Shown: one piece after another, positions 4,968 through 31,520 of the stretch
Numbering within the stretch: position 1 is the first letter of the stretch
How the letters are laid out: each line of letters opens with the position of its first letter
Virus record (IMG/VR): IMGVR_UViG_2917870735_000002
Origin: a virus
Taxonomy: Duplodnaviria; Heunggongvirae; Uroviricota; Caudoviricetes
DNA: 31,520 nucleotides
Reading direction: 5' to 3' (one strand)
Position numbers and translations under genes: made by a program
Notes under the pieces: model-generated
What the model was told of the DNA's origin: nothing
Database searches by the model: none
What the model saw: only the letters and a program-made list of their open reading frames with translations

Positions 4968-6989
4968 ATGATGTTGGCCATAAAGGAACACTTCTATGTT
5001 GTCGATACGTGGCGGCGTGAAACTTTCGCATCTTGCATACCGGCAGACGCGACAATCACAGAACGCCGTTTGTGGGCTGTAAATCCGCAGGATTATGAAT
5101 GGAGAGTCCGGTACCTGCATGAGATACCCGACTGGTTAGCCGGGTATTTTGGCCGTCGTTACGAAAAGCTGTTTGCTGGTCGTGACGGGCGTTGTCGTGC
5201 CAATACATTCCTGCGCCAGACTATCGGCGGGAGTGTATTGCCACGTCTGCGCAAAGTGGCTGCGCGTTACTCGCTGGCCGCTGACGCTGCCGATCTTCCT
5301 TTTGGTAAGTCGCTGGCGCGCTTGCCGTCACTAGACCGTCCTGATCTTAAAAAACTGGCTGGCCAGGTATCTGGCTGGATTTCCCAGTCACTTTATGACT
5401 TCACCGAACAGTTTGACTCCAGCACTGACGACGCCAGAGAGCTGCATCGCCGCACCTTGGAATCATACCGCCATCTTTGCGCGGGTTGCCTGATGCTGAA
5501 TAACCAGCCGCCGTACTGGGCTGAACATGAGGCCAATGAAGGTCAACTGGAAATGCGTAAGGCGGAATCCGGGATACTGCGCATGATGGCGCCGGAATGG
5601 TGGTACCTACGTCTTAAACGTGCGCGTGATATGCAGCGCGAACATATGGCCATCGCGGTGGGACAGGTACAAAAAGCGGCCAGCGCTTATGTATCCCGCA
5701 AAACACTGGACGAATGGATAGACCAGAAAAAGCGGAATCTGGAGTTCTTTAAAAAGTTTGATCTGCTGAATGATGAGGGGCTGCGCATTGCACTGGACAG
5801 CATGGTGCACCGCAGCGTTGCAAATCCGGCGATCCGTCGATGTGAACTAATGGTAAGAATGCGAGGGTTTGAAGATATGGCCAATGAAGAAGGGCTGGCC
5901 GGTGAGTTTTACACCATCACCGCGCCATCACGTTTCCACGCAGTGCACAGCAAAGGTGGCTTTGTATCGCAATGGGATGGATGTACACCGCAGGATACCC
6001 AGCGCTATTTATGCGGCGTATGGGCAAAAGCACGCGCAGCGATCTCGCGTGCGGGTATTCATGTATTTGGGTTTCGGGTTGTTGAGCCACACCATGACGG
6101 GACACCGCACTGGCATATGTTGCTTTTTATGCGTCTGCAGGACGTGGACACGGTACGCGATATTCTTTGCTATCACGCCAGAATTACCGATTCTGAGGAA
6201 CTGCAATCTGAAAAGGCGCTTAAGGCACGTTTTCACGTTGAAGCTATCGATCCCGACAAAGGTTCAGCCACGGGCTACATCGCGAAATACATTTCAAAAA
6301 ATATTGATGGTTTTGCGTTGGATGGTGAGCAGGACGAAGAAACCGGCGAAAACCTGCGTGATATGGCTAAGTCCGTTTCTGCATGGGCTTCACGCTGGCG
6401 CATTCGTCAGTTTCAGCAGATTGGTGGTGCGCCGGTAACCGTCTGGCGTGAGCTGCGTCGGTTGCGGGATCTGGTGCTGACAGATCGCAGAATGGATGCG
6501 GTTCTGGCCGCTGCTGATGTTGGCGATTGGGCTGCATACACCCAAGCACAGGGTGGCGCACTGATTGCCCGCCGTGATCTGGTTGTTCGTCTGGCCTATG
6601 AAATTACGGAACAGGGCAACGAGTACGCAGAGGACGTGCAGCGCGTACAGGGGGTTTATTCTCCTTTGGTTCCTGATTCGGAAGTTTGCACCCGTCTGGT
6701 TAAGTGGCAAAAGGTTGCGAAGTTGGCCGAAGCGCCAGCGGAGGCGGGGTTTTCTGGCGGCAACGCCGCCCCTTGGAGTTCTGTCAATAACTGTACGGAG
6801 GGGGGAATCCTCAGACGGTTAAAACTGGAATTATGCAGTCGGGGTTTTAACGGTTCTAATGAAGAAATAGCCATTCTCCTACGGGGTAGTGGTTTGATGT
6901 TTGGCCAAGGGGGACTGGTTTACCGTAATGGGTGGCTTAAAGAGATTCAAAACGAGCCATTAAACGAGTTATGGCCGGGGTGGGTCTAG
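4968..6989 (+). CDS. A: replication initiation protein A (rolling-circle nicking endonuclease, P2 gpA family)
   Basis: 673 aa; ATG 4968 with GAGG upstream. His-hydrophobic-His motif (HHDGTPHWHMLLF) and tyrosine/lysine motif (TGYIAKYISKN) typical of rolling-circle initiators. Size comparable to 186 A and P2 A from memory. Confidence 0.85.
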   Translation: MMLAIKEHFYVVDTWRRETFASCIPADATITERRLWAVNPQDYEWRVRYLHEIPDWLAGYFGRRYEKLFAGRDGRCRANTFLRQTIGGSVLPRLRKVAARYSLAADAADLPFGKSLARLPSLDRPDLKKLAGQVSGWISQSLYDFTEQFDSSTDDARELHRRTLESYRHLCAGCLMLNNQPPYWAEHEANEGQLEMRKAESGILRMMAPEWWYLRLKRARDMQREHMAIAVGQVQKAASAYVSRKTLDEWIDQKKRNLEFFKKFDLLNDEGLRIALDSMVHRSVANPAIRRCELMVRMRGFEDMANEEGLAGEFYTITAPSRFHAVHSKGGFVSQWDGCTPQDTQRYLCGVWAKARAAISRAGIHVFGFRVVEPHHDGTPHWHMLLFMRLQDVDTVRDILCYHARITDSEELQSEKALKARFHVEAIDPDKGSATGYIAKYISKNIDGFALDGEQDEETGENLRDMAKSVSAWASRWRIRQFQQIGGAPVTVWRELRRLRDLVLTDRRMDAVLAAADVGDWAAYTQAQGGALIARRDLVVRLAYEITEQGNEYAEDVQRVQGVYSPLVPDSEVCTRLVKWQKVAKLAEAPAEAGFSGGNAAPWSSVNNCTEGGILRRLKLELCSRGFNGSNEEIAILLRGSGLMFGQGGLVYRNGWLKEIQNEPLNELWPGWV

Positions 6990-7003
6990 CAGGGTAAATA
7001 TGT

Positions 7004-7019
7004 GAAATGCATGCATTTC
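7004..7019. repeat. 16-bp perfect palindrome GAAATGCATGCATTTC just downstream of A
   Basis: Verified base by base; 15-30 bp after the A stop codon. Confidence 0.6.
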
Positions 7020-7074
7020 TCAGTAGATGGAAGGAAATTAAATTTCACTATTCGTGCTTTACGGTGTACGGTAT

Positions 7075-7092
7075 ACTGGATACTTATCCAGT
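7075..7092. repeat. 18-bp dyad ACTGGATA-ct-TATCCAGT
   Basis: 8-bp perfect inverted arms, 2-bp centre; preceded by TACGGT-g-TACGGT direct repeat. Confidence 0.6.
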
Positions 7093-7114
7093 CACTATTG
7101 CTTGTGGGGGCTAA

Positions 7115-7321
7115 ATGGATCTTTTGGAGGCGTCGGCACAGCTGGAACGCATTGAGTTATTAGCTAAAATTGCCCATGATTACGAAAGTAACCAGAGAGA
7201 AAAAACAATCGCTTTGGCCTGGATTGGAGAACTTGCGGAAGAGGTTCACAAAATGGTTAGAAAGGAAGGGAAAAGCCCTCATTCTGGGGGCTTTTTAGGC
7301 AGCGGGAGTCACTTTCAGTAA
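7115..7321 (+). CDS. hypothetical ORF (68 aa), doubtful
   Basis: ATG 7115 with weak GTGGGGG upstream; 3' end overlaps the convergent ogr-like gene by 27 nt. May be non-coding. Confidence 0.25.
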   Translation: MDLLEASAQLERIELLAKIAHDYESNQREKTIALAWIGELAEEVHKMVRKEGKSPHSGGFLGSGSHFQ

Positions 7322-7564
7322 ATCTAATGCTACCTGGCGCTGAGCGGGAGAAAGTGCACTCAGTATTTTTTGCACCACCGCATCACCCGTTTTAGCGCTG
7401 GGGCTGAGAGTGTGGGAAAATGTCAGATTCATAACAAATGTGTGGCCACATTCAACATCTGAACAGGCGCAGTAAATATCTGCAATTTGCCGATGCTTCC
7501 TGTTCGTTTTACGAATAACAGCCTTTGAGCCGCATTCCGGGCATTCGATTTTCAGAACTCGCAT
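7295..7564 (-). CDS. ogr: late gene transcriptional activator, Ogr/Delta zinc-finger family (89 aa)
   Basis: In-frame ATG at 7564 (MRVLKIECPECG...), GGAG about 11 nt upstream. Cys pattern CPEC ... CACSDVEC matches the C4 arrangement of P2 Ogr/186 B as I recall. About 17 aa longer at the C-terminus than the 72-aa P2/186 proteins. Confidence 0.8.
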   Translation of the reverse strand: MRVLKIECPECGSKAVIRKTNRKHRQIADIYCACSDVECGHTFVMNLTFSHTLSPSAKTGDAVVQKILSALSPAQRQVALDLLKVTPAA

Positions 7565-7614
7565 ATTCCATGCTCCAGCTGTTAAATGAAGCATGGATTT
7601 TAGCCAGTTTCGCA

Positions 7615-8676
7615 TCATGCCGCACCTTTATCTATTGATTCTATGTAACTTAAATCAAAGTTTAGGTGCAACCTTTCCGGTATTTCGGGATCGTTGTTTA
7701 CGGCCAGCATGAAACGGCGCTGGATGGGGGCAATTTCGCTTTTCTTATAAATGCGTTCAGCCTTTTCAACATCCCCCAGTCCGGCAGTGTTCTGCGGGAC
7801 AATACCGGCGAGGCCGGCAGGGAAACGGTGCGCGTTCAGAATATCCTGGGCGCTGATGTTCTTGATGTTGGCAAATTCATCCTTAGCAGAAATATCACCC
7901 ATTTCAATGAATTTGATGGCGTCGCCGTCTCCACCGGGAATGTTTACAAGGATGGTGGAGAAGTTCCCGATCCCTTTGCTGTCACGCAGCTGCTGTTCAA
8001 TTTCTTCCTCCATTTCGTCCGTCATGCTGGGATCGCGGGTATAAAGAATTCCGCCTGTGTGTGCACCGTTGTGGTAGTAGCGGCGTCGGAAAATGACCGC
8101 TTCACTGTTAAGTAACGCGGAATGCACACCGCCGATGTAGTCCGGCAGTCCGTAGATATGCTGTTGAGGGTCATACATTTTGATAAAGATAATATCTTCT
8201 TCTGGCCATATCTGCGGTTCCCCTTCCTGTAACACTACGTAGTCACCGGGCTTATCCAGGGCGTTATCTCTGACTTTGCGGCGGCGTATATACAGACCGG
8301 GTAAGGGTTCAAGTGCGATCACGTCTCCCCAGCCGTTACGAATTTTGGCAATCGCAATATCCCCAAAGGTTATATAGTCATACGCTGCCGCTTCCAGCTG
8401 GTCGTGAATAAGTCCGCCACCCAAGTAATCTGAAACAATCATGTTTTTGCGGGCGTGAATGATGCCGCCGTGCTGACCGTTAAGATTAATCAGCTGTGCG
8501 AGTGCCAGCCGGTCAATCGGCTGGGTGAAGTGATCGGCGGCATTGTCGTACCAGATATCACGGTAATCTGTGCCGGTAGTCAGAACCGGTTCAGGTTTGC
8601 CGAATGTGATAATGCTCATCTTTTTTGATTTGTCGCCGCGCTGGTCGCGCTTAACAAAGCGTTTCTTTTTACTCAT
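7615..8676 (-). CDS. Q: portal protein (P2 gpQ family)
   Basis: 353 aa; conserved blocks (GLPDYIG...LNSEAVIFRRRYYHNGAHTGGILY; DILNAHRFPAGLAG...GDVEKAE) match P2 Q from memory. Start ATG overlaps terminase stop (ATGA). Confidence 0.92.
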   Translation of the reverse strand: MSKKKRFVKRDQRGDKSKKMSIITFGKPEPVLTTGTDYRDIWYDNAADHFTQPIDRLALAQLINLNGQHGGIIHARKNMIVSDYLGGGLIHDQLEAAAYDYITFGDIAIAKIRNGWGDVIALEPLPGLYIRRRKVRDNALDKPGDYVVLQEGEPQIWPEEDIIFIKMYDPQQHIYGLPDYIGGVHSALLNSEAVIFRRRYYHNGAHTGGILYTRDPSMTDEMEEEIEQQLRDSKGIGNFSTILVNIPGGDGDAIKFIEMGDISAKDEFANIKNISAQDILNAHRFPAGLAGIVPQNTAGLGDVEKAERIYKKSEIAPIQRRFMLAVNNDPEIPERLHLNFDLSYIESIDKGAA

Positions 8677-25559: not shown

Positions 25560-27262
25560 TGATGAAACCAGTAAAACGCCTATACCTTTCAACGGATGAA
25601 GTTCACCTGGTGGATGCCAGCCTGGTACTGGAGCTGAACAGCTGCGGCCGGGGCTTCATCACCGCAGAGACAACAACCGATTACACCGGAAAACTGGTGA
25701 GGCTGGATGTGGGGTATACCGAACTGCTTTTGCGCTGGTTTACGGGGTATGTGGAGCGATCGCAGCCCGCTGAAAACGGTTTTCAGCGTCTGTTCATTCG
25801 TGAGTTGGCAGGTGTGTTTGAAAGGATGTGGCCATGTTCGTTTCAACACCCGACTTTGCGTGAAATTGCGGTCTGGTTGGAAGAAAATAGCGGGATCACG
25901 GTCAGTGTGCCTGACGCACAGTACAGCGATACCCCTATCCCACATTTTACCCATAACGGTACTGGTTATCAGTTGCTGAACAATCTGGGAAGGGCGTTCA
26001 GTATCCAGGATTACATCTGGTACCAGTTTCCTGATGGTTCGCTTTACGTCGGTGGCGCAGAAAAGTCATTGTTTGCCGGTCGTCCCGTAGAAATCCCATC
26101 AGAATTCAGCCAGGGGGCTGCTGGCGGTAACTCTGTGACATTACCAGTGATCCAGACTATGCGGCCAGGGGTGGAGATGAACGGTGAACGCGTGACTAAG
26201 GTTCATCTGACGAATGACACGATGGCGATCACATGGATGCCGAGAAACCGCGTAACGGGTAAACCTTTGCAGAAAACACCGGCACAAAGGCAGATTGAAA
26301 GCCATTACCCTGAACTGGCATCTGGGCTTCATTTGCCAAAGATGGCCAGAGTCGTGGCGTATTCAGAGCCGGTAAAAAGCGGTAACTTTGCCGATCCCTT
26401 CCGACCACGTTACGCCGTGGACGTGCAGCTTCTTGACGCAGACGGAAACCCGGACAATCAGACACCTGTTTATTCAGCGGTGCCGTTGCCAGTACCGATG
26501 GCTGGGAATGATTCAGGTATGTTTCAGTTTCCGCCAGAAGGGACGCTGGTTGAGGTTGCATTCACGGGAGGCAGACCTGATAAACCCTTTATCAGGCAGA
26601 CGCTGCCGGATGGTACCAGCCTGCCGGACGTTAAACCCGGTGAGCAATTGCAGCAGCAGCGGGAAGAAGTATCCCAGAGGGTGACTCAGGCTGGAGACTG
26701 GGTAAGGCAGACCGATCAGACCATCAGTGAAACATCGATGGTGCGAACGGTAAAAGCCGATACGGAACAGCGCGAACTGGTCAGCCGTGAAACCGCGGTG
26801 AAAGCTACGGATAAAACTACGGTACTGGGAACCGCCATATTGCTGGCTGGAGCCATCCAGCAGGTCAGCGCCGGTGATTATAGCCAGGCGGTGAAAGGTA
26901 ACAGGCTGTCCAGTATTGAAGGAAACGAAGAAACGGACATAACAGGACTGCAGTCCACTAAAGTGGGGGGGGCTGTAGTCGTGGAGGTTGGCGAAAGCCT
27001 GACAGAGAAGATTGCAGCACTGCGTAAATCAGTAGCCACTGGAGGTCAGCAGGTCATGGGGGCAACTGTCCATATTGGCAGTGAGAGTATCAACGCCCTG
27101 ACCATGATGCTGGACACCATTGATTTACTGGAAGAGCTGGCGCAGCTATGTGCGAGCCATTCTCATCCCTCCGTTGGGATGCCAACCAATGCCGCCGCGT
27201 TCACCCAGACAGGGACGAAAGCCGGGCAGACCCGGGAAAAATACCAGGGGATTATTGCCTAA
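25559..27262 (+). CDS. putative baseplate hub / late control D-like tail protein (567 aa)
   Basis: TAATG-coupled to upstream gene; last gene of late operon as gpD is in P2; no firm motif recognised. Confidence 0.4.
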   Translation: MMKPVKRLYLSTDEVHLVDASLVLELNSCGRGFITAETTTDYTGKLVRLDVGYTELLLRWFTGYVERSQPAENGFQRLFIRELAGVFERMWPCSFQHPTLREIAVWLEENSGITVSVPDAQYSDTPIPHFTHNGTGYQLLNNLGRAFSIQDYIWYQFPDGSLYVGGAEKSLFAGRPVEIPSEFSQGAAGGNSVTLPVIQTMRPGVEMNGERVTKVHLTNDTMAITWMPRNRVTGKPLQKTPAQRQIESHYPELASGLHLPKMARVVAYSEPVKSGNFADPFRPRYAVDVQLLDADGNPDNQTPVYSAVPLPVPMAGNDSGMFQFPPEGTLVEVAFTGGRPDKPFIRQTLPDGTSLPDVKPGEQLQQQREEVSQRVTQAGDWVRQTDQTISETSMVRTVKADTEQRELVSRETAVKATDKTTVLGTAILLAGAIQQVSAGDYSQAVKGNRLSSIEGNEETDITGLQSTKVGGAVVVEVGESLTEKIAALRKSVATGGQQVMGATVHIGSESINALTMMLDTIDLLEELAQLCASHSHPSVGMPTNAAAFTQTGTKAGQTREKYQGIIA

Positions 27263-27316
27263 TGCTGACACTCACATGATAAGTTGAAACGTTCTGGACT
27301 TGCTGATAGCAGTATT

Positions 27317-27913
27317 TCAGTTGTTGTGTAGTTCAAGATAGTTAGAGGTGGAGTGCGTATCAAGCGGTAGTAGTTGTGCGGCTCTGCGGGTTATAAAGAC
27401 ACTATTGGCAGGAATGTTTCGGTTAACGAATGACATAGCACCAATTGTCACATTATCACCAATGGTCAGATCATCACCGATGATGCATGAATTTGCGCCA
27501 ATCTCGACATTGTCTCCGATCCTGATGGCTTTGATTCCTTCAACTGTTTTTAATCCAATCGTTGTGTTTTGTCGGATACGAACATTTTTTCCAATCACAG
27601 CCTGGGGACAAATGACTATTCCAACGAAGTGATAAATTTTGAATTTTTCCCCGATCTGTGCCCCCAATCCAATATCAGTATTGTATTTTGAAACAAGTCT
27701 CCGGTGGATTCTTCGTGCCCACTTAATACTTGATTTCCCTCCCTGACAGTAAAGGCAATTCGCTATCCTCCACCAACACATGAATCTGTGTCCGGGTTGT
27801 CTCCAGCAACGTAGTATGATTCTCCTCCAGGAGAAATTTTTACTGCTGTGCAGTATGTCCGCGCACAACAACTTCTTCATATCCTCATAATGCGACTTTT
27901 TGTTGTTGCTCAT
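27317..27913 (-). CDS. hexapeptide-repeat acetyltransferase, serine acetyltransferase (CysE)/WcaB-like
   Basis: 198 aa; ATG 27913 with AGGGAGA upstream. Helical N-terminus (HRFMCWWRIANCLY) then left-handed beta-helix repeats (DIGLGAQIGEKFKIYHFVGIVICPQAVIGKNVRIRQNTTIG ... IGDNVEIGANSCIIGDDLTIGDNVTIGAMSFV) paralleling the CysE core pattern. AT-rich; convergent with the last tail gene. Confidence 0.75.
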   Translation of the reverse strand: MSNNKKSHYEDMKKLLCADILHSSKNFSWRRIILRCWRQPGHRFMCWWRIANCLYCQGGKSSIKWARRIHRRLVSKYNTDIGLGAQIGEKFKIYHFVGIVICPQAVIGKNVRIRQNTTIGLKTVEGIKAIRIGDNVEIGANSCIIGDDLTIGDNVTIGAMSFVNRNIPANSVFITRRAAQLLPLDTHSTSNYLELHNN

Positions 27914-27928
27914 AAATTATTCTCCCTA

Positions 27929-27945
27929 ATAATCCTGAGGATTAT
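27929..27945. promoter_or_regulatory. 17-bp perfect palindrome ATAATCCTGAGGATTAT adjoining the acetyltransferase RBS
   Basis: 8-bp arms around a central G, verified base by base; 16-32 bp upstream of the start codon at 27913. Confidence 0.45.
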
Positions 27946-28466
27946 CGTACATGAGAATGATCTGATTTTCTGCTAACAACATTAAGTTATGTGGTCGGAA
28001 CTGATAATTGGCTACTTAATCCCAAATAATTAGTTGAATTACTAACAAAACATCTTTCTTATCTTGTCATAGATGTCGGCAGAGGGATTATTAACCCTTT
28101 AATAACAAACCTAACTTGGTCACTAAGTATAAAAGAACAGAATTGTAGCGTTGCGCTGGTATGGTGATATGGCGACAAAATAAATCCTTTGCAGACAAAA
28201 ACGGCGCTACACCGCACCCGCCTGCGGTTTCTGGATCTGGAAAATTTTTCAGTTTTATTTTTTTACAAACAGCACCGCCAGACCGCGCCACGGTTGGCTG
28301 CTTGCCAAAGAACAGGAACTGAAAAGATTGAAAAGAATTTCAGCATTTTTCAGTTTAGAGGATCTGTAAAGGATCTAAGTGGAAAGGCAAGCAATTGAAA
28401 TATAATAATAAATTTTATATTTGTGGAGTGGAGAAGATCAAATGTCGAAGGCAATGTGTAGGAGGA

Positions 28467-28499
28467 AAAACCCGCAATGCCAGTTGTGGTGCGGGTTTT
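28467..28499 (-). terminator. rho-independent terminator-like hairpin (10-bp stem AAAACCCGCA/TGCGGGTTTT, 13-nt loop)
   Basis: Perfect stem verified; on the minus strand the stem ends in UUUU followed by UCCUCC; about 70 bp downstream of the minus-strand 122-aa gene. Confidence 0.55.
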
Positions 28500-28566
28500 A
28501 GGGGGATTAGATTAAATTCAGAAAGTGAAATTAGCATACCTATACTTTAAGTGCGCCAATAGGTAA

Positions 28567-28935
28567 TCAATTTTCATCAATATGACTTTCGTTTTCATCT
28601 TTGTACCATGTGGGCAAATTATCTGTAATTTGTTCATTAATTACATTTTGAGTGTCAGCAGGTAGCAGTTTAAAAATCTCAAAAATAAAGTTTGATATTT
28701 CAACTTTTACATCAGCAGTAGGGCCATAAAAATCATCTTTAACATAATCCCATTTATGCTTTATTAAAGTTGATTCTGGATATTGTATTTTGACTAAGCC
28801 AATTTGTTTGTAAATCCAATTTATGGCGCTATCTGCTCCAGAGAAGGCCTCATTACCGCTATTAATAAATGGCCCAACATCATAGACACGTTTAGTGTTA
28901 TTATCTAAAACTCTTACATAACAATTGGTTGCCAT
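28567..28935 (-). CDS. hypothetical small acidic protein (122 aa)
   Basis: ATG 28935 with AAGGTGG upstream; 15 bp after the 104-aa gene on the same strand; AT-rich; acidic C-terminus. Confidence 0.6.
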   Translation of the reverse strand: MATNCYVRVLDNNTKRVYDVGPFINSGNEAFSGADSAINWIYKQIGLVKIQYPESTLIKHKWDYVKDDFYGPTADVKVEISNFIFEIFKLLPADTQNVINEQITDNLPTWYKDENESHIDEN

Positions 28936-28950
28936 ACCCCACCTTTTTTA

Positions 28951-29265
28951 TTAGCCAATGTACCGTACACGATTGCCGTTATATAATGGCCATTCGTTTA
29001 GCAAATCTCTAAGTAGTCTTTCCATGTGAGTTGCATCTTCTGCTGCATTTTTTCCAACATAGTCATTTCCACGTTGGAAAGTTTCATAACGCATTGCCAT
29101 TGATGGGGTGTTTTCTTCAAAGCCAATTGGAGACAAATCATTTATTTGTGTAACTGCTACATCGCCAGATTTAGATACCCAGAGAATATGATGACCTGCG
29201 TTATCGTCGCAAGCAGAGATTAGTTGTGAGAGTTGGCTTACTGTAGGGTTATTGTTTAAGTTCAT
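28951..29265 (-). CDS. hypothetical small protein (104 aa)
   Basis: ATG 29265 with AAGAGG 8 nt upstream; first gene of a two-gene cassette. Confidence 0.6.
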   Translation of the reverse strand: MNLNNNPTVSQLSQLISACDDNAGHHILWVSKSGDVAVTQINDLSPIGFEENTPSMAMRYETFQRGNDYVGKNAAEDATHMERLLRDLLNEWPLYNGNRVRYIG

Positions 29266-29474
29266 TTAAATACCTCTTTTAATAAGATTTAGTTATAACG
29301 TAAAACAAGCCACAAATTGATTATCTATCCTCATAGGCTGCATATCAACTTTAGATTTTAGGCGGTGTGGATCGTGGTAAGCCAGAGATTATAGAGATAA
29401 GCCCGCTTGTAAGAACTGGCGCGGGCTGCACGTAAATTTATGAAATCTTCACAACTGAAATTTGTTCAGCGAAA

Positions 29475-30101
29475 TTACAGCACTGTTTCTGCGGAACGGG
29501 ACGCTTCTTTTGTCGCATTGCCAGTGATAAAAGGCTGCTTTTCCTGATATTCCGACTGCGGTAGTTTGGATGTATACACTGGCGTGATCTTGTTTTTATA
29601 AACGGTGTCACTGGGGATGTTCTGAAGCACCAGTGAATGCGCACCAATGGTGACATTGTTTCCGATTGTAATCTTGCCGCCCAGAATGGACGAGTTACAG
29701 CCAATATCAACATGATCACCAATGATTATCATTGCGTCGACACTGTCGGTGCGTAACCCTATGGTGATGCCTTGCTTCAGGTCGGCGAAATCACCAATCA
29801 CGCAATTGTCAGTAATGACAATACCGTTCAAATGAGCAATGTTTAACCCCTTGCCGATTTTGCACGACAGAGAAATATCAACGCTGTGCCGGTACTTGAG
29901 GCGGTTTTCAATTCTGCGGGCAATGCGCTTTTTGAACTTACTATTCTGGCCATAGAGCCATGAAGCAATACGCCACCAGAACAGGAAGTGCTTCTTCTGG
30001 TTGCGTCGGGTACGAAGTAACGCTTTACGCCATGAAAAGGCTTTGTCATGGCCAATGACTTCAAGGCGGATACATTCTTTACGATGGTCGTAGGAAGTCA
30101 T
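29475..30101 (-). CDS. hexapeptide-repeat acetyltransferase, CysE/WcaB-like (divergent paralog of 27317..27913)
   Basis: 208 aa; shares N-terminal motif (FSWR..., WWRIASWLY) and beta-helix repeats (IGDFADLKQGITIGL ... IGDHVDIGCNSSILGGKITIGNNVTIGAHSLV) with the other acetyltransferase. Confidence 0.75.
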   Translation of the reverse strand: MTSYDHRKECIRLEVIGHDKAFSWRKALLRTRRNQKKHFLFWWRIASWLYGQNSKFKKRIARRIENRLKYRHSVDISLSCKIGKGLNIAHLNGIVITDNCVIGDFADLKQGITIGLRTDSVDAMIIIGDHVDIGCNSSILGGKITIGNNVTIGAHSLVLQNIPSDTVYKNKITPVYTSKLPQSEYQEKQPFITGNATKEASRSAETVL

Positions 30102-30210
30102 GATTAGTCATCCTGACAGAATATTATAGGTACTTGAAATTATGCTTCCATTTGATTGCTAATGGAAGAGAATGGCCATATTTTGAATTTTATAAAAAAT
30201 ATGAGGGAGT

Positions 30211-30245
30211 ATCACCCTTACCACTCATGGAGTGGTAAGGGTGAT
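30211..30245. repeat. 35-bp inverted repeat ATCACCCTTACCACTC-atg-GAGTGGTAAGGGTGAT (16-bp perfect arms)
   Basis: All 16 pairs verified; between the 411-aa gene stop (30285) and acetyltransferase 2 start (30101). On the minus strand a T6 run lies about 10 nt after the stem. Confidence 0.8.
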
Positions 30246-30284
30246 TGAACTAAGTAAATATTGTAGAATAATCGAGCTAAAGTT

Positions 30285-31520
30285 TTAGAGGTGAAACCAA
30301 GAATAAGTAGCTTCATCTTTTTCAAAAATATACTGTATATGTAATTCAACTAACCAGAGACTAACTATTTTAAGCGTAAGTTTATTACATAAATGAATAT
30401 ACCTTGTATAACTTATTTCTCTTTCAGCTCCTGTACCCCCACTTTTGTATCGAACAGATTCTCCATCATGCCATATTGATGCGTGATGCGAGCCATTCCT
30501 AATTGTAGATTCTAAATCATCTTCACAAAAGGCGGTAAATAATTCATTGTCTTTAAATGGATTTATCTTTCCTTCTTTATTAACATCTTTTATATATTTG
30601 TTTAGTGTCATTGTTTTGAATTGATCAAAACTCCTTCCATTAATAATGTTATTAATGCAGGCTAATATTGTCATGTTAGATGTTAAAGTTTCATAAGCAT
30701 CACCATAGTAATTACGGATTTTATCAAAGTTTTTTGAACTGATGATTTTGGTGTCAATTTCATCGTTGTTTATTCTTGCGTAATATATTAGTTGGCCAAA
30801 ATGATCTCGACGAGACATGAAGTCTGATATGATGTTTATATATCTTTGTTGATTTTCAACCTGTAGGTTTTGTTTATAAAATTTATAGAAATCGTCCAGT
30901 AATCCATTTTTTTTAAGCTCGTCAATTTCTAGCTTTATAGGTTCGGCAATGTCATGAACACGAGGGTAGAAAAGCCAATCTAAAAACTCATAACTAATTG
31001 AAGTGAAAGAGTACATTGAATCCTTTTTGTAAAGAGGTAATTCTTCATTTCGTGACTGCATGTATAATTTTGCTGTACGCTGTGCTTTTTCTATTTCCCC
31101 ATTGTTAATAAGTTTTGCAATGGATTTTAAATAAGCCCATTTTGACGGAGCGTTAGGAATATCAAATTGGTGTGAAATGCTGATAATTCTTTGTCCAGGT
31201 GGCATCCTCATATGCTTATGGAGCATGCTCGTTAACTCAAGGGATGGGAAAGTTGTTGGTGAATGAATTTCATCTTTGTCGAAAGCACAAGCTGGGTGAA
31301 AATTAACTACTTTATGTTCTAAGCTATATTCAACAATAATACAATTTTCTTCAACTTGAATGTAAGCGCTGGGGGGAATAGCTTTTACAGCAAAAACAAT
31401 TGGCATATTACATTCAAAACAATCCATGAAATGCTTTTGATATTTATCAATTCCGACCCCAACCCTTACACGATAAATAGCGTTACATGACTGACATTGG
31501 ATGCTATTACCGATTACCAT
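30285..31520 (-). CDS. hypothetical Cys-rich protein (at least 411 aa); zinc-ribbon-like N-terminus; 5' end at window edge
   Basis: ORF runs to the last base; first ATG is at 31520-31518 so the true start may lie outside. N-terminus has CQSC-x22-CFEC spacing; very AT-rich; no recognisable catalytic motif. Confidence 0.6.
   Translation of the reverse strand: MVIGNSIQCQSCNAIYRVRVGVGIDKYQKHFMDCFECNMPIVFAVKAIPPSAYIQVEENCIIVEYSLEHKVVNFHPACAFDKDEIHSPTTFPSLELTSMLHKHMRMPPGQRIISISHQFDIPNAPSKWAYLKSIAKLINNGEIEKAQRTAKLYMQSRNEELPLYKKDSMYSFTSISYEFLDWLFYPRVHDIAEPIKLEIDELKKNGLLDDFYKFYKQNLQVENQQRYINIISDFMSRRDHFGQLIYYARINNDEIDTKIISSKNFDKIRNYYGDAYETLTSNMTILACINNIINGRSFDQFKTMTLNKYIKDVNKEGKINPFKDNELFTAFCEDDLESTIRNGSHHASIWHDGESVRYKSGGTGAEREISYTRYIHLCNKLTLKIVSLWLVELHIQYIFEKDEATYSWFHL

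What the first reader, a model, noticed from the sequence alone, without database searches (positions are those of the whole stretch)
28567..29265. Tightly coupled 104-aa/122-aa gene pair with dedicated terminator between the two acetyltransferases
Two small AT-rich genes 15 bp apart, each with a good Shine-Dalgarno sequence, followed 70 bp downstream by a clean intrinsic terminator (28467-28499). The architecture is that of a toxin-antitoxin or toxin-immunity module or a small two-component effector. Neither sequence is recognisable to me.
Basis: inference. Interest (0 to 1): 0.5.

Follow-up and report, generated by a model that had tools for sequence, protein, structure and literature searches.

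The report
Two-gene phage cargo cassette, function unknown
The two small genes are a real, conserved, self-contained cargo cassette in the swap-prone end of a P2-like prophage; they encode two protein families nobody has described, they are very unlikely to be a toxin-antitoxin pair, and what they do is still unknown.

Summary
Two minus-strand genes, A (28951-29265, 104 aa) and B (28567-28935, 122 aa), lie 15 nt apart. Each has a Shine-Dalgarno sequence. A sigma-70-like promoter lies upstream (29320-29348) and a hairpin terminator downstream (28467-28499).

Both genes are under strong purifying selection (dN/dS 0.06-0.25). The promoter, the 12-15 nt spacing and the terminator are kept across Escherichia, Salmonella, Pantoea and metagenomic viral (IMG/VR) loci.

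The cassette sits in the variable cargo slot at the right end of a Quadragintavirus-like (P2-like) prophage of Escherichia sp. E5028. Related prophages carry other cargo there, and the closest one lacks the pair.

The toxin-antitoxin reading is not supported.
- Neither protein matches any Pfam, NCBIfam, PADLOC, PHROG or PDB family.
- A has no DNA-binding fold.
- Each gene also occurs without the other.

A founds an undescribed domain family of 641 clusters at 50% identity. It is usually a lone gene in mobile or defence-rich regions. Occasionally it is fused to HEPN, to a PD-T4-6-like kinase, or to glyoxalase domains. B is confined to 28 clusters.

My best reading is a lysogen-expressed accessory cassette (a phage "moron") involved in phage-host conflict, acting by binding rather than by toxicity. 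That function is inferred, not shown.

The parts
29320..29348 (-). Sigma-70-like promoter of the cassette (-35 TTGATA, 17-nt spacer, -10 GATAAT)
   Evidence: Consensus scan gives 10 of 12 matches. The -35 and -10 hexamers are kept at the same distance from A's start in L018, L019, L024 and L029, although synonymous sites are saturated. Not shown to be active.
29273..29278 (-). Shine-Dalgarno sequence of gene A (AAGAGG, 7 nt before the ATG)
   Evidence: Read directly from the sequence.
28951..29265 (-). Gene A, 104 aa. Acidic (pI 4.95), with no signal peptide or membrane segment apparent from the sequence. Founding member of an undescribed small alpha/beta domain family.
   Evidence: ORF. Family size is 34 clusters at 90% identity and 641 at 50% identity. 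dN/dS is 0.06-0.24. The AF2 model has pLDDT 93.8. There is no family or fold match.
28937..28945 (-). Shine-Dalgarno sequence of gene B (AAGGTGGGG), inside the 15-nt intergenic gap
   Evidence: Read from the sequence. A purine-rich gap of 12-15 nt is kept in seven diverged loci.
28567..28935 (-). Gene B, 122 aa. Acidic (pI 4.57), with a beta-rich core and a low-confidence acidic C-terminal tail (residues 92-122). Narrow family.
   Evidence: ORF. The family has 28 clusters. dN/dS is 0.11-0.25. The AF2 model has pLDDT 68. There is no family or fold match.
28467..28499 (-). Intrinsic terminator of the cassette
   Evidence: RNAfold gives dG -15.7 kcal/mol with a U-run. The equivalent hairpin AACCCGC..GCGGGTTTTT is kept in L018, L019, L024 and L029.
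28175..28380 (+). Conserved non-coding-looking element that forms the inner edge of the cargo slot (a flank, not part of the cassette)
   Evidence: 72-84% nucleotide identity in E. coli, Salmonella, Serratia and Pantoea prophages that carry different cargo. Present in 51 of 5426 complete E. coli genomes.

Best explanation
The feature is an autonomous accessory cassette, a phage 'moron': promoter, gene A, gene B, terminator. It sits in the variable cargo slot at the right end of a Quadragintavirus-like (P2-like) prophage of Escherichia sp. E5028.

**How I think it works.** In the lysogen its own sigma-70-type promoter makes one bicistronic mRNA, independent of the phage late operon, which runs on the opposite strand. 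The mRNA yields two small acidic proteins that look cytoplasmic.
- A is a compact alpha/beta domain. It belongs to a widespread, undescribed family that is normally a lone gene in mobile or defence-rich DNA. In some bacteria it is fused to defence-type effector domains (HEPN RNase, PD-T4-6-like Ser/Thr kinase). I read A as a binding or recognition module.
- B is a partner specific to Enterobacterales. It probably works with A as a complex.

**What it most likely does.** The pair most likely modulates phage-host or phage-phage conflict, such as protecting the lysogen against other phages, by binding a target rather than by poisoning the cell. It is not a toxin-antitoxin pair.

**How sure each step is.**
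- Real coding cassette with moron architecture: shown.
- Sits in a cargo-swapping slot: shown.
- Not an obligate TA pair: well supported (about 0.9).
- Role in conflict: inferred (about 0.5).
- Protective for the lysogen rather than counter-defence: weakly preferred (about 0.35 against 0.25).
- A and B form a complex: inferred only from linkage.
For: **Real genes under selection.** dN/dS is 0.06-0.25 with dS saturated.

**Cassette behaviour.** Promoter, 12-15 nt spacing and terminator are conserved across diverged loci. GC is 31-39% against 50% for the phage.

**Presence and absence in related prophages.**
- The pair is absent from the closest E. coli prophage.
- It is absent from all 5426 complete E. 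coli genomes.
- It is 97.6% identical in phage ESSI2_ev015.
- It is alone after the baseplate gene in Salmonella.
- It lies between terS and terL in an unrelated Yersinia prophage.

**The slot holds other cargo elsewhere.** Examples are a lone acetyltransferase, DUF6338 genes, an AAA ATPase and the 411-aa gene.

**The A family.**
- 641 clusters at 50% identity, mostly free-standing proteins of 100-110 aa.
- Neighbourhoods include AbiTii/AbiH and Imm-NTF2-2, integrases, and IS21/M78 peptidase/nSTAND3.
- Fusions: A+HEPN_RiboL-PSP on 4 contigs next to a CAP12/Pycsar TIR gene, a kinase+A protein whose kinase matches PADLOC PD-T4-6 models at 1e-22, and glyoxalase fusions.
- No recurrent neighbour family among 130 neighbours from 51 loci.

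**Physical properties.** Both proteins are acidic, and I saw no signal peptide or membrane segment in either sequence.

**Coupled divergence.** Divergence of A and B across pairs is correlated (r = 0.87). This is expected from shared history as well as from interaction.
Against: - There is no functional data of any kind. The promoter is only a consensus match.
- No PADLOC or PHROG family matches either protein.
- B has no recognisable effector domain, and its model is only moderately confident (pLDDT 68).
- The fusions are few (one to four contigs each) among 641 clusters.
- Many lone A genes lie next to ordinary housekeeping genes such as tuf, so a role outside conflict is possible.
- The r = 0.87 correlation does not separate interaction from co-inheritance.
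- That A and B each occur alone also weakens the idea that they must act as a complex.
Confidence: 0.55

Rival explanations
1. Counter-defence cargo. A and/or B are small acidic phage proteins that inhibit a host immune system. For example, A could act as a free decoy copy of a domain that host defence proteins (HEPN, kinase) use for sensing, or as a sponge for a signalling molecule.
For: - Both proteins are small and acidic, with no enzymatic domain.
- They are carried on temperate phages and on IMG/VR viral contigs.
- The A domain also occurs inside defence-type proteins.
- A has conserved polar residues (D21, H26, R59, T62, N67, Y69) that could form a binding site.
- Lone genes with no fixed partner are typical of inhibitors.
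Against: - The cassette has its own constitutive-type promoter and sits in the slot next to the prophage end, alongside acetyltransferase genes. That fits expression in the lysogen better than early expression during infection.
- Many homologues are in chromosomes with no obvious phage context.
- No anti-defence family matches either protein. This covers only the libraries searched here, none of which is a dedicated anti-defence collection.
Confidence: 0.22
2. Type II toxin-antitoxin or toxin-immunity pair. One protein poisons the cell and the other neutralises it.
For: - Two small genes 15 nt apart in one operon on a mobile element.
- The linkage is old.
- B has a low-confidence, probably flexible tail, which loosely recalls antitoxins.
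Against: - No match to any toxin, antitoxin or immunity family by sequence or fold.
- No HTH, RHH or AbrB-type DNA-binding fold in the confident A model.
- A is a lone gene in most of its loci outside Enterobacterales.
- B occurs without A in Methylophilus, and inside a hemA-prfA-prmC gene cluster.
- In the Yersinia-type IMG/VR locus L020, B is frameshifted while A stays intact.
Confidence: 0.06
3. Lysogenic-conversion helpers tied to the flanking acetyltransferases, for example accessory subunits or regulators of a surface-polysaccharide acetylation module.
For: The pair lies between two hexapeptide acyltransferases of phrog_2154. The same SAT2-A-B order is kept in ESSI2_ev015 and in L046.
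Against: The pair occurs with no acetyltransferase in Salmonella, Serratia, Pantoea and Yersinia loci. The acetyltransferases occur without the pair in E. coli prophages. Separate promoter and terminator signals divide SAT2 from A.
Confidence: 0.07

Closest known systems
Phage morons (autonomous accessory transcription units, as defined for lambdoid phages by Hendrix and colleagues; cited from my own knowledge)
   Same: Own promoter and terminator. Inserted between elements that are adjacent in related phages. Base composition differs from the phage. Transcribed opposite to the late operon.
   Different: Classic morons are usually single genes with known lysogenic-conversion roles, such as lom and bor. 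This one has two genes from undescribed families, and its transcription is not shown.
[quoted passage not shown] 2022, PMC9122126; 2026 follow-up, PMC13586616)
   Same: A small locus with high gene turnover between conserved flanks in a P2-like prophage. AT-rich. It holds genes of unknown function, and such genes in P4 hotspots often proved to be defences when tested (6 of 8 in PMC13586616).
   Different: The hotspot described in P2 lies between gpA and gpQ. This slot lies between the end of the tail/baseplate operon and the prophage end. None of its cargo matches a known defence system.
Type II toxin-antitoxin modules
   Same: Two small co-transcribed genes on a mobile element.
   Different: No family match, no DNA-binding antitoxin domain, and each gene occurs without the other.
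PD-T4-6-type Ser/Thr kinase and HEPN single-protein defences
   Same: The A domain occupies the non-catalytic end of a PD-T4-6-like kinase (P0110) and of a HEPN_RiboL-PSP protein (P0082).
   Different: The window protein is the bare domain with no effector. B is not a kinase or a HEPN protein.

Membership tests
Type II toxin-antitoxin system | At least one component is homologous to a known toxin or antitoxin family | tested here: not met
Type II toxin-antitoxin system | The two genes depend on each other, so they co-occur strictly | tested here: not met
   A occurs without B in most loci outside Enterobacterales. B occurs without A in L040-L043.
Type II toxin-antitoxin system | The antitoxin carries a DNA-binding domain (HTH, RHH, AbrB or similar) and autoregulates the operon | tested here: not met
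   Predicted folds are a1-b1-b2-a2-b3-a3-a4-b4 for A and b-b-a-b-b-b for B, with no DNA-binding neighbours. The B model is only moderately confident. Autoregulation cannot be tested here.
Type II toxin-antitoxin system | One product is toxic and the other neutralises it | not testable with these tools
   Needs inducible expression of each gene alone and of both together.
Type II toxin-antitoxin system | Compact bicistronic operon | tested here: met
   15-nt gap in the window, 12-15 nt in seven loci.
Phage moron | Own promoter and own terminator bracket the inserted gene or genes | tested here: met
   Promoter match of 10 of 12. Terminator dG -15.7 kcal/mol. Both signals are conserved in diverged loci. 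Their activity is not shown.
Phage moron | Present in some and absent from other closely related phages at the same position | tested here: met
   Absent in E. coli MFDS1019527 and EH09-18-41 prophages, which share both flanks. Present in ESSI2_ev015, L046 and Salmonella.
Phage moron | Base composition differs from the surrounding phage genome | tested here: met
   GC 0.39 (A) and 0.31 (B) against 0.50 for positions 1-27262.
Prophage cargo/defence hotspot (sense of Rousset et al. 2022) | Small locus with high turnover between conserved flanks | tested here: met
   The conserved element at 28175-28380 plus the host flank bracket different cargo in different genomes.
Prophage cargo/defence hotspot (sense of Rousset et al. 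2022) | The cargo gives protection against phages | not testable with these tools
   No known defence model matches. Plaque assays are needed.
Polymorphic toxin-immunity pair | A toxin domain with a secretion or trafficking N-terminal region, followed by a cognate immunity gene | tested here: not met
   No toxin or Imm family hit. Both proteins are 104-122 aa with no signal or trafficking region evident. One lone A gene lies near an Imm-NTF2-2 gene, which is only circumstantial.

The most novel reading that the evidence does not exclude
A defines a new, widespread recognition domain used in bacterial immunity. It occurs free-standing, fused to HEPN, and fused to a PD-T4-6-like kinase. The prophage A-B cassette would then be a previously unknown two-gene system in which A senses an invading-phage component (or soaks up a defence signal) and B carries out or tunes the response. 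That would make it a new anti-phage defence or counter-defence system with no relative among known ones.
Probability: 0.3. Interest if true: 0.65.

Novelty: new variant of a known kind. Interest (0 to 1): 0.4.

Why it matters
The architecture is ordinary: a moron in a prophage cargo slot. The contents are not. Both proteins belong to families with no Pfam, PHROG, PADLOC or PDB relative.

Family A is large (641 clusters at 50% identity, from Proteobacteria to Firmicutes, Bacteroidota, Planctomycetes and a cyanophage). It turns up repeatedly in mobile and defence-rich DNA, and it is sometimes fused to defence effector domains. If it is a recognition module, it would add a new sensor domain to the catalogue of bacterial immunity. 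It would also flag a second cargo slot in P2-like prophages, between the tail end and the prophage end, as a place to look for new systems.

If the cassette shows no phenotype, it joins the large pool of unexplained phage accessory genes.

Tried and rejected
**Family searches that found nothing**
- Pfam, NCBIfam, PADLOC and PHROG scans of A and B gave nothing usable.
- Pfam on distant A homologues gave nothing.
- Pfam, PHROG and PADLOC scans on 94 diverse A members gave no recurrent family. Only scattered hits at E around 0.01 to PDC-S05 and LigT appeared, and I treat them as noise.
- PDB sequence profiles found nothing.

**Fold searches**
- Foldseek against BFVD found nothing below E 0.2.
- The afdb50 library was unavailable.

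**Other checks**
- An A-versus-B profile comparison shows they are not related to each other.
- Rfam on 27000-31520 found nothing significant.
- I looked for a conserved partner of A. Among 130 neighbours from 51 loci, none recurs apart from a 145-157-aa protein in three loci.
- I searched for att repeats to fix the prophage end and found none convincing. ESSI2_ev015 uses a different, tRNA-type att.
- A viral scan with the broad A alignment failed because it had no conserved stretch to search with.
- Literature searches on Quadragintavirus and P2 hotspots found no mention of these proteins.

**Ideas rejected**
- A as a 2H phosphoesterase: it lacks the HxT/S motifs.
- The pair as accessory to the acetyltransferases: the pair and the acetyltransferases each occur without the other.

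Full report
**1. The observation**

A is at 28951-29265 (104 aa) and B is at 28567-28935 (122 aa), with 15 nt between them. Each start codon follows a good Shine-Dalgarno sequence: AAGAGG for A and AAGGTGGGG for B.

RNAfold puts a hairpin at 28499-28467, AAAACCCGCA...TGCGGGUUUU followed by U, with dG -15.7 kcal/mol. It starts 67 nt after B's stop codon. The generic terminator scan missed it, probably because its rule is a short simple stem with a 3-8 nt loop and this hairpin is longer and interrupted. That scan did find the best promoter-like site of the region just upstream of A: TTGATA, 17 nt, GATAAT at 29348-29320, 10 of 12 matches. A second hairpin between SAT2's stop codon and this promoter separates the pair from the upstream acetyltransferase.

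Both flanking genes are hexapeptide-repeat acyltransferases. They belong to one phage family, phrog_2154, and are 43% identical to each other.

**2. These are real genes, and the cassette is a unit**

I compared seven diverged A-B loci: the window, IMG/VR loci L018 and L019, Salmonella L024, Pantoea L029, Serratia L031 and Yersinia L044.
- dN/dS is 0.06-0.24 for A and 0.11-0.25 for B, with synonymous sites saturated.
- The intergenic gap stays at 12-15 nt.
- In the window, L018, L019, L024 and L029 the -35 and -10 hexamers and the terminator hairpin (AACCCGC...GCGGGTTTTT) are kept in place.
- GC is 39% for A and 31% for B, against 50% for the rest of the phage.

Promoter, A, B and terminator therefore travel and persist together. 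That is the definition of a phage moron.

**3. Where it sits**

The window is a P2-like prophage with a capsid, tail and baseplate module. The 567-aa baseplate gene matches phrog_2258. The closest isolated phage is Escherichia phage ESSI2_ev015 (Peduoviridae, Quadragintavirus), which carries the pair at 97.6% nucleotide identity as gp41 and gp42, both annotated hypothetical.

The exact proteins are WP_135381050.1 and WP_135381047.1 of Escherichia sp. E5028. In that genome the order is mntR, 411-aa gene, SAT2, A, B, conserved element, SAT1, baseplate gene (locus L045).

The stretch between the end of the baseplate operon and the host flank is a swap-prone cargo slot.

| Genome or locus | Cargo in the slot |
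|---|---|
| E. coli MFDS1019527 | SAT2-like gene plus an AAA ATPase, no A-B |
| E. coli EH09-18-41 | One acetyltransferase |
| E. coli Combat13F7 and GF131 | DUF6338 and other small genes |
| E. coli EC42405 | Only a 79%-identical copy of the 411-aa gene |
| Salmonella | A-B alone |
| L046 and ESSI2_ev015 | SAT2 plus A-B |

A roughly 200-nt element (28175-28380) is conserved in all of these and marks the inner edge of the slot.

The pair itself is rare.
- It is in none of 5426 complete E. coli genomes, even with sensitive blastn.
- It is in one of 50,697 phage records.
- In a Yersinia rochesterensis prophage of a different type it lies between the small and large terminase genes. In the matching IMG/VR contig, B is frameshifted.

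**4. What the proteins are**

Neither protein matches any model in Pfam, NCBIfam, PADLOC or PHROGs or any PDB sequence.

Both proteins are acidic, with pI 4.95 and 4.57. I saw no signal peptide or membrane segment in either sequence. A and B are not related to each other.

**5. Distribution**

An exhaustive profile search finds 641 clusters at 50% identity for A at E<=1e-3, and 282 at E<=1e-10. Almost all are free-standing proteins of 100-110 aa. Members occur in Enterobacterales, Pseudomonas-like bacteria, Marinobacter, Chlorobium, Burkholderiales, Planctomycetes, Lachnospiraceae, Muribaculum, Bacillales and a Dolichospermum phage. Residues N2, D21, H26, W29, G34, V36, G71, A74 and W92 are nearly invariant in 94 diverse members.

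B has only 28 clusters, in Enterobacterales plus a betaproteobacterial group.

In every enterobacterial locus I examined, A is followed by B. Outside that group the two separate.
- A is alone in about 40 examined loci.
- B is alone in Methylophilus next to an integrase remnant, and between prfA and prmC in metagenomic contigs.
- Among 130 neighbours of A from 51 loci, no family recurs. The one repeat partner is an unrelated 145-157-aa protein in three loci (L009, L010, L066).

**6. Hints to function**

The surroundings of lone A genes often look mobile or defence-related.
- AbiTii, AbiH, Imm-NTF2-2 and DUF7660 in Ectopseudomonas.
- Integrases in Marinobacter.
- IS21, M78 peptidases and nSTAND3 in Chlorobium.
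- Tn3 and IS21 transposition genes, phage capsid, RadC and DNA methylase among metagenomic neighbours.

A few proteins carry A as one domain.
- P0082 is A + HEPN_RiboL-PSP. It occurs on four contigs, each time beside a CAP12/Pycsar-type TIR gene.
- P0110 is a Ser/Thr kinase + A. The kinase matches PADLOC PD-T4-6 models at 1e-22, and the contig is seen in six samples.
- P0170, P0204 and P0175 join A to glyoxalase-superfamily segments.
- P0063 is a tandem A-A.

[quoted passage not shown] That this kinase is the system named PD-T4-6 is from my own knowledge. These fusions place A at the non-catalytic end of defence-type effectors, the position usually taken by sensing or regulatory domains. This is suggestive and rests on few cases.

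**7. Interpretation**

The TA or toxin-immunity reading fails three testable criteria: family membership, strict co-occurrence and a DNA-binding antitoxin. A gene that sits in a hemA-prfA-prmC gene cluster (B), or that stands alone in hundreds of lineages (A), is unlikely to be a toxin. It is equally unlikely to be an antitoxin needed only against its partner.

The best-supported description is a two-gene moron in a prophage cargo slot. Its orientation, promoter type, position near the prophage end and acetyltransferase neighbours fit expression in the lysogen. I commit to a conflict-related binding function, with A as the recognition module and B as its enterobacterial partner. I place lysogen protection slightly ahead of counter-defence. 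Both remain inferences. The toxicity, plaque-assay, co-purification and transcript-mapping experiments listed under next steps would decide.

**8. Novelty and score**

The kind of element, a moron or hotspot cargo, is well known (PMC9122126, PMC13586616). The two protein families and this particular slot are not described in anything I could search. I rate it a new variant of a known kind, with interest 0.4. It is a reasonable candidate for experimental screening and is not in itself surprising.

Noticed in passing
window 28175-28380: A roughly 200-nt element is conserved at 72-84% nucleotide identity right after the baseplate gene in related prophages of E. coli, Salmonella, Serratia and Pantoea, whatever cargo follows it. 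It has an invariant core CGCTACACCGCACCCGCCTGC plus a T-run that looks like a two-way terminator. After that come repeated TTTCAGTT/AACTGAAA motifs and two GATC sites about 8 nt apart. RNAalifold shows no covariation, so it looks more like a DNA site or terminator than a structured RNA.
   Followed up: partly
window 27317-27913 and 29475-30101: Two paralogous hexapeptide acyltransferases (43% identical, both phrog_2154 of unknown function, with EpsC/CysE/WcaB as the closest named families) flank the pair. Each is present or absent independently in related prophages.
   Followed up: partly
window 30285-31520: A 411-aa ORF with GC 33% and a Cys-rich N-terminus (CxxC...CxxC) matches no family. 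It lies between SAT2 and host mntR. A 79%-identical copy is the only cargo in the same slot of E. coli EC42405, so it is another cargo gene of this slot rather than a host gene.
   Followed up: partly
L050 1787-2779 (also L051, L052): A 330-aa protein fuses the A domain to a HEPN_RiboL-PSP domain. On four metagenomic contigs it lies directly after a CAP12/Pycsar-type TIR gene, which may be an unrecognised defence pair.
   Followed up: partly
L041 6001-6342, L042 1253-1594, L043 866-1207: A homologue of B (49% identity) sits alone between prfA (release factor 1) and prmC in metagenomic contigs. That is inside a housekeeping gene cluster, with no A nearby.
   Followed up: partly
L009 6364-6801, L010 6279-6752, L066 327-767: In three distant loci (Alcaligenaceae, Planctomycetia and a metagenome) A is followed by an unrelated conserved 145-157-aa protein starting MPIIVTFDI..., which has no Pfam match. 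It may be an alternative partner for A.
   Followed up: no
A protein residues 1-3 (window 29257-29265): The N-terminus MNL is invariant in 32 close members, and N2 is kept in at least 90% of 94 diverse members. Conservation this strong at a protein's first residues is unusual, and I have no explanation.
   Followed up: no
L001 1890-2226 versus window 30102-30285: ESSI2_ev015 carries the same SAT2-A-B cargo at 97.6% identity. Its sequence diverges about 50 nt past SAT2 and contains what I read by eye as a tRNA 3'-end-like attP segment next to a different integrase. The window prophage sits beside mntR instead. The cargo appears to be shared across different integration modules.
   Followed up: partly
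window 6990-7615: The hotspot described for P2-like phages, between the gpA-like gene (4968-6989) and the portal gene (7615-8676), holds only one 107-aa ORF here (7295-7618). I did not examine it.
   Followed up: no
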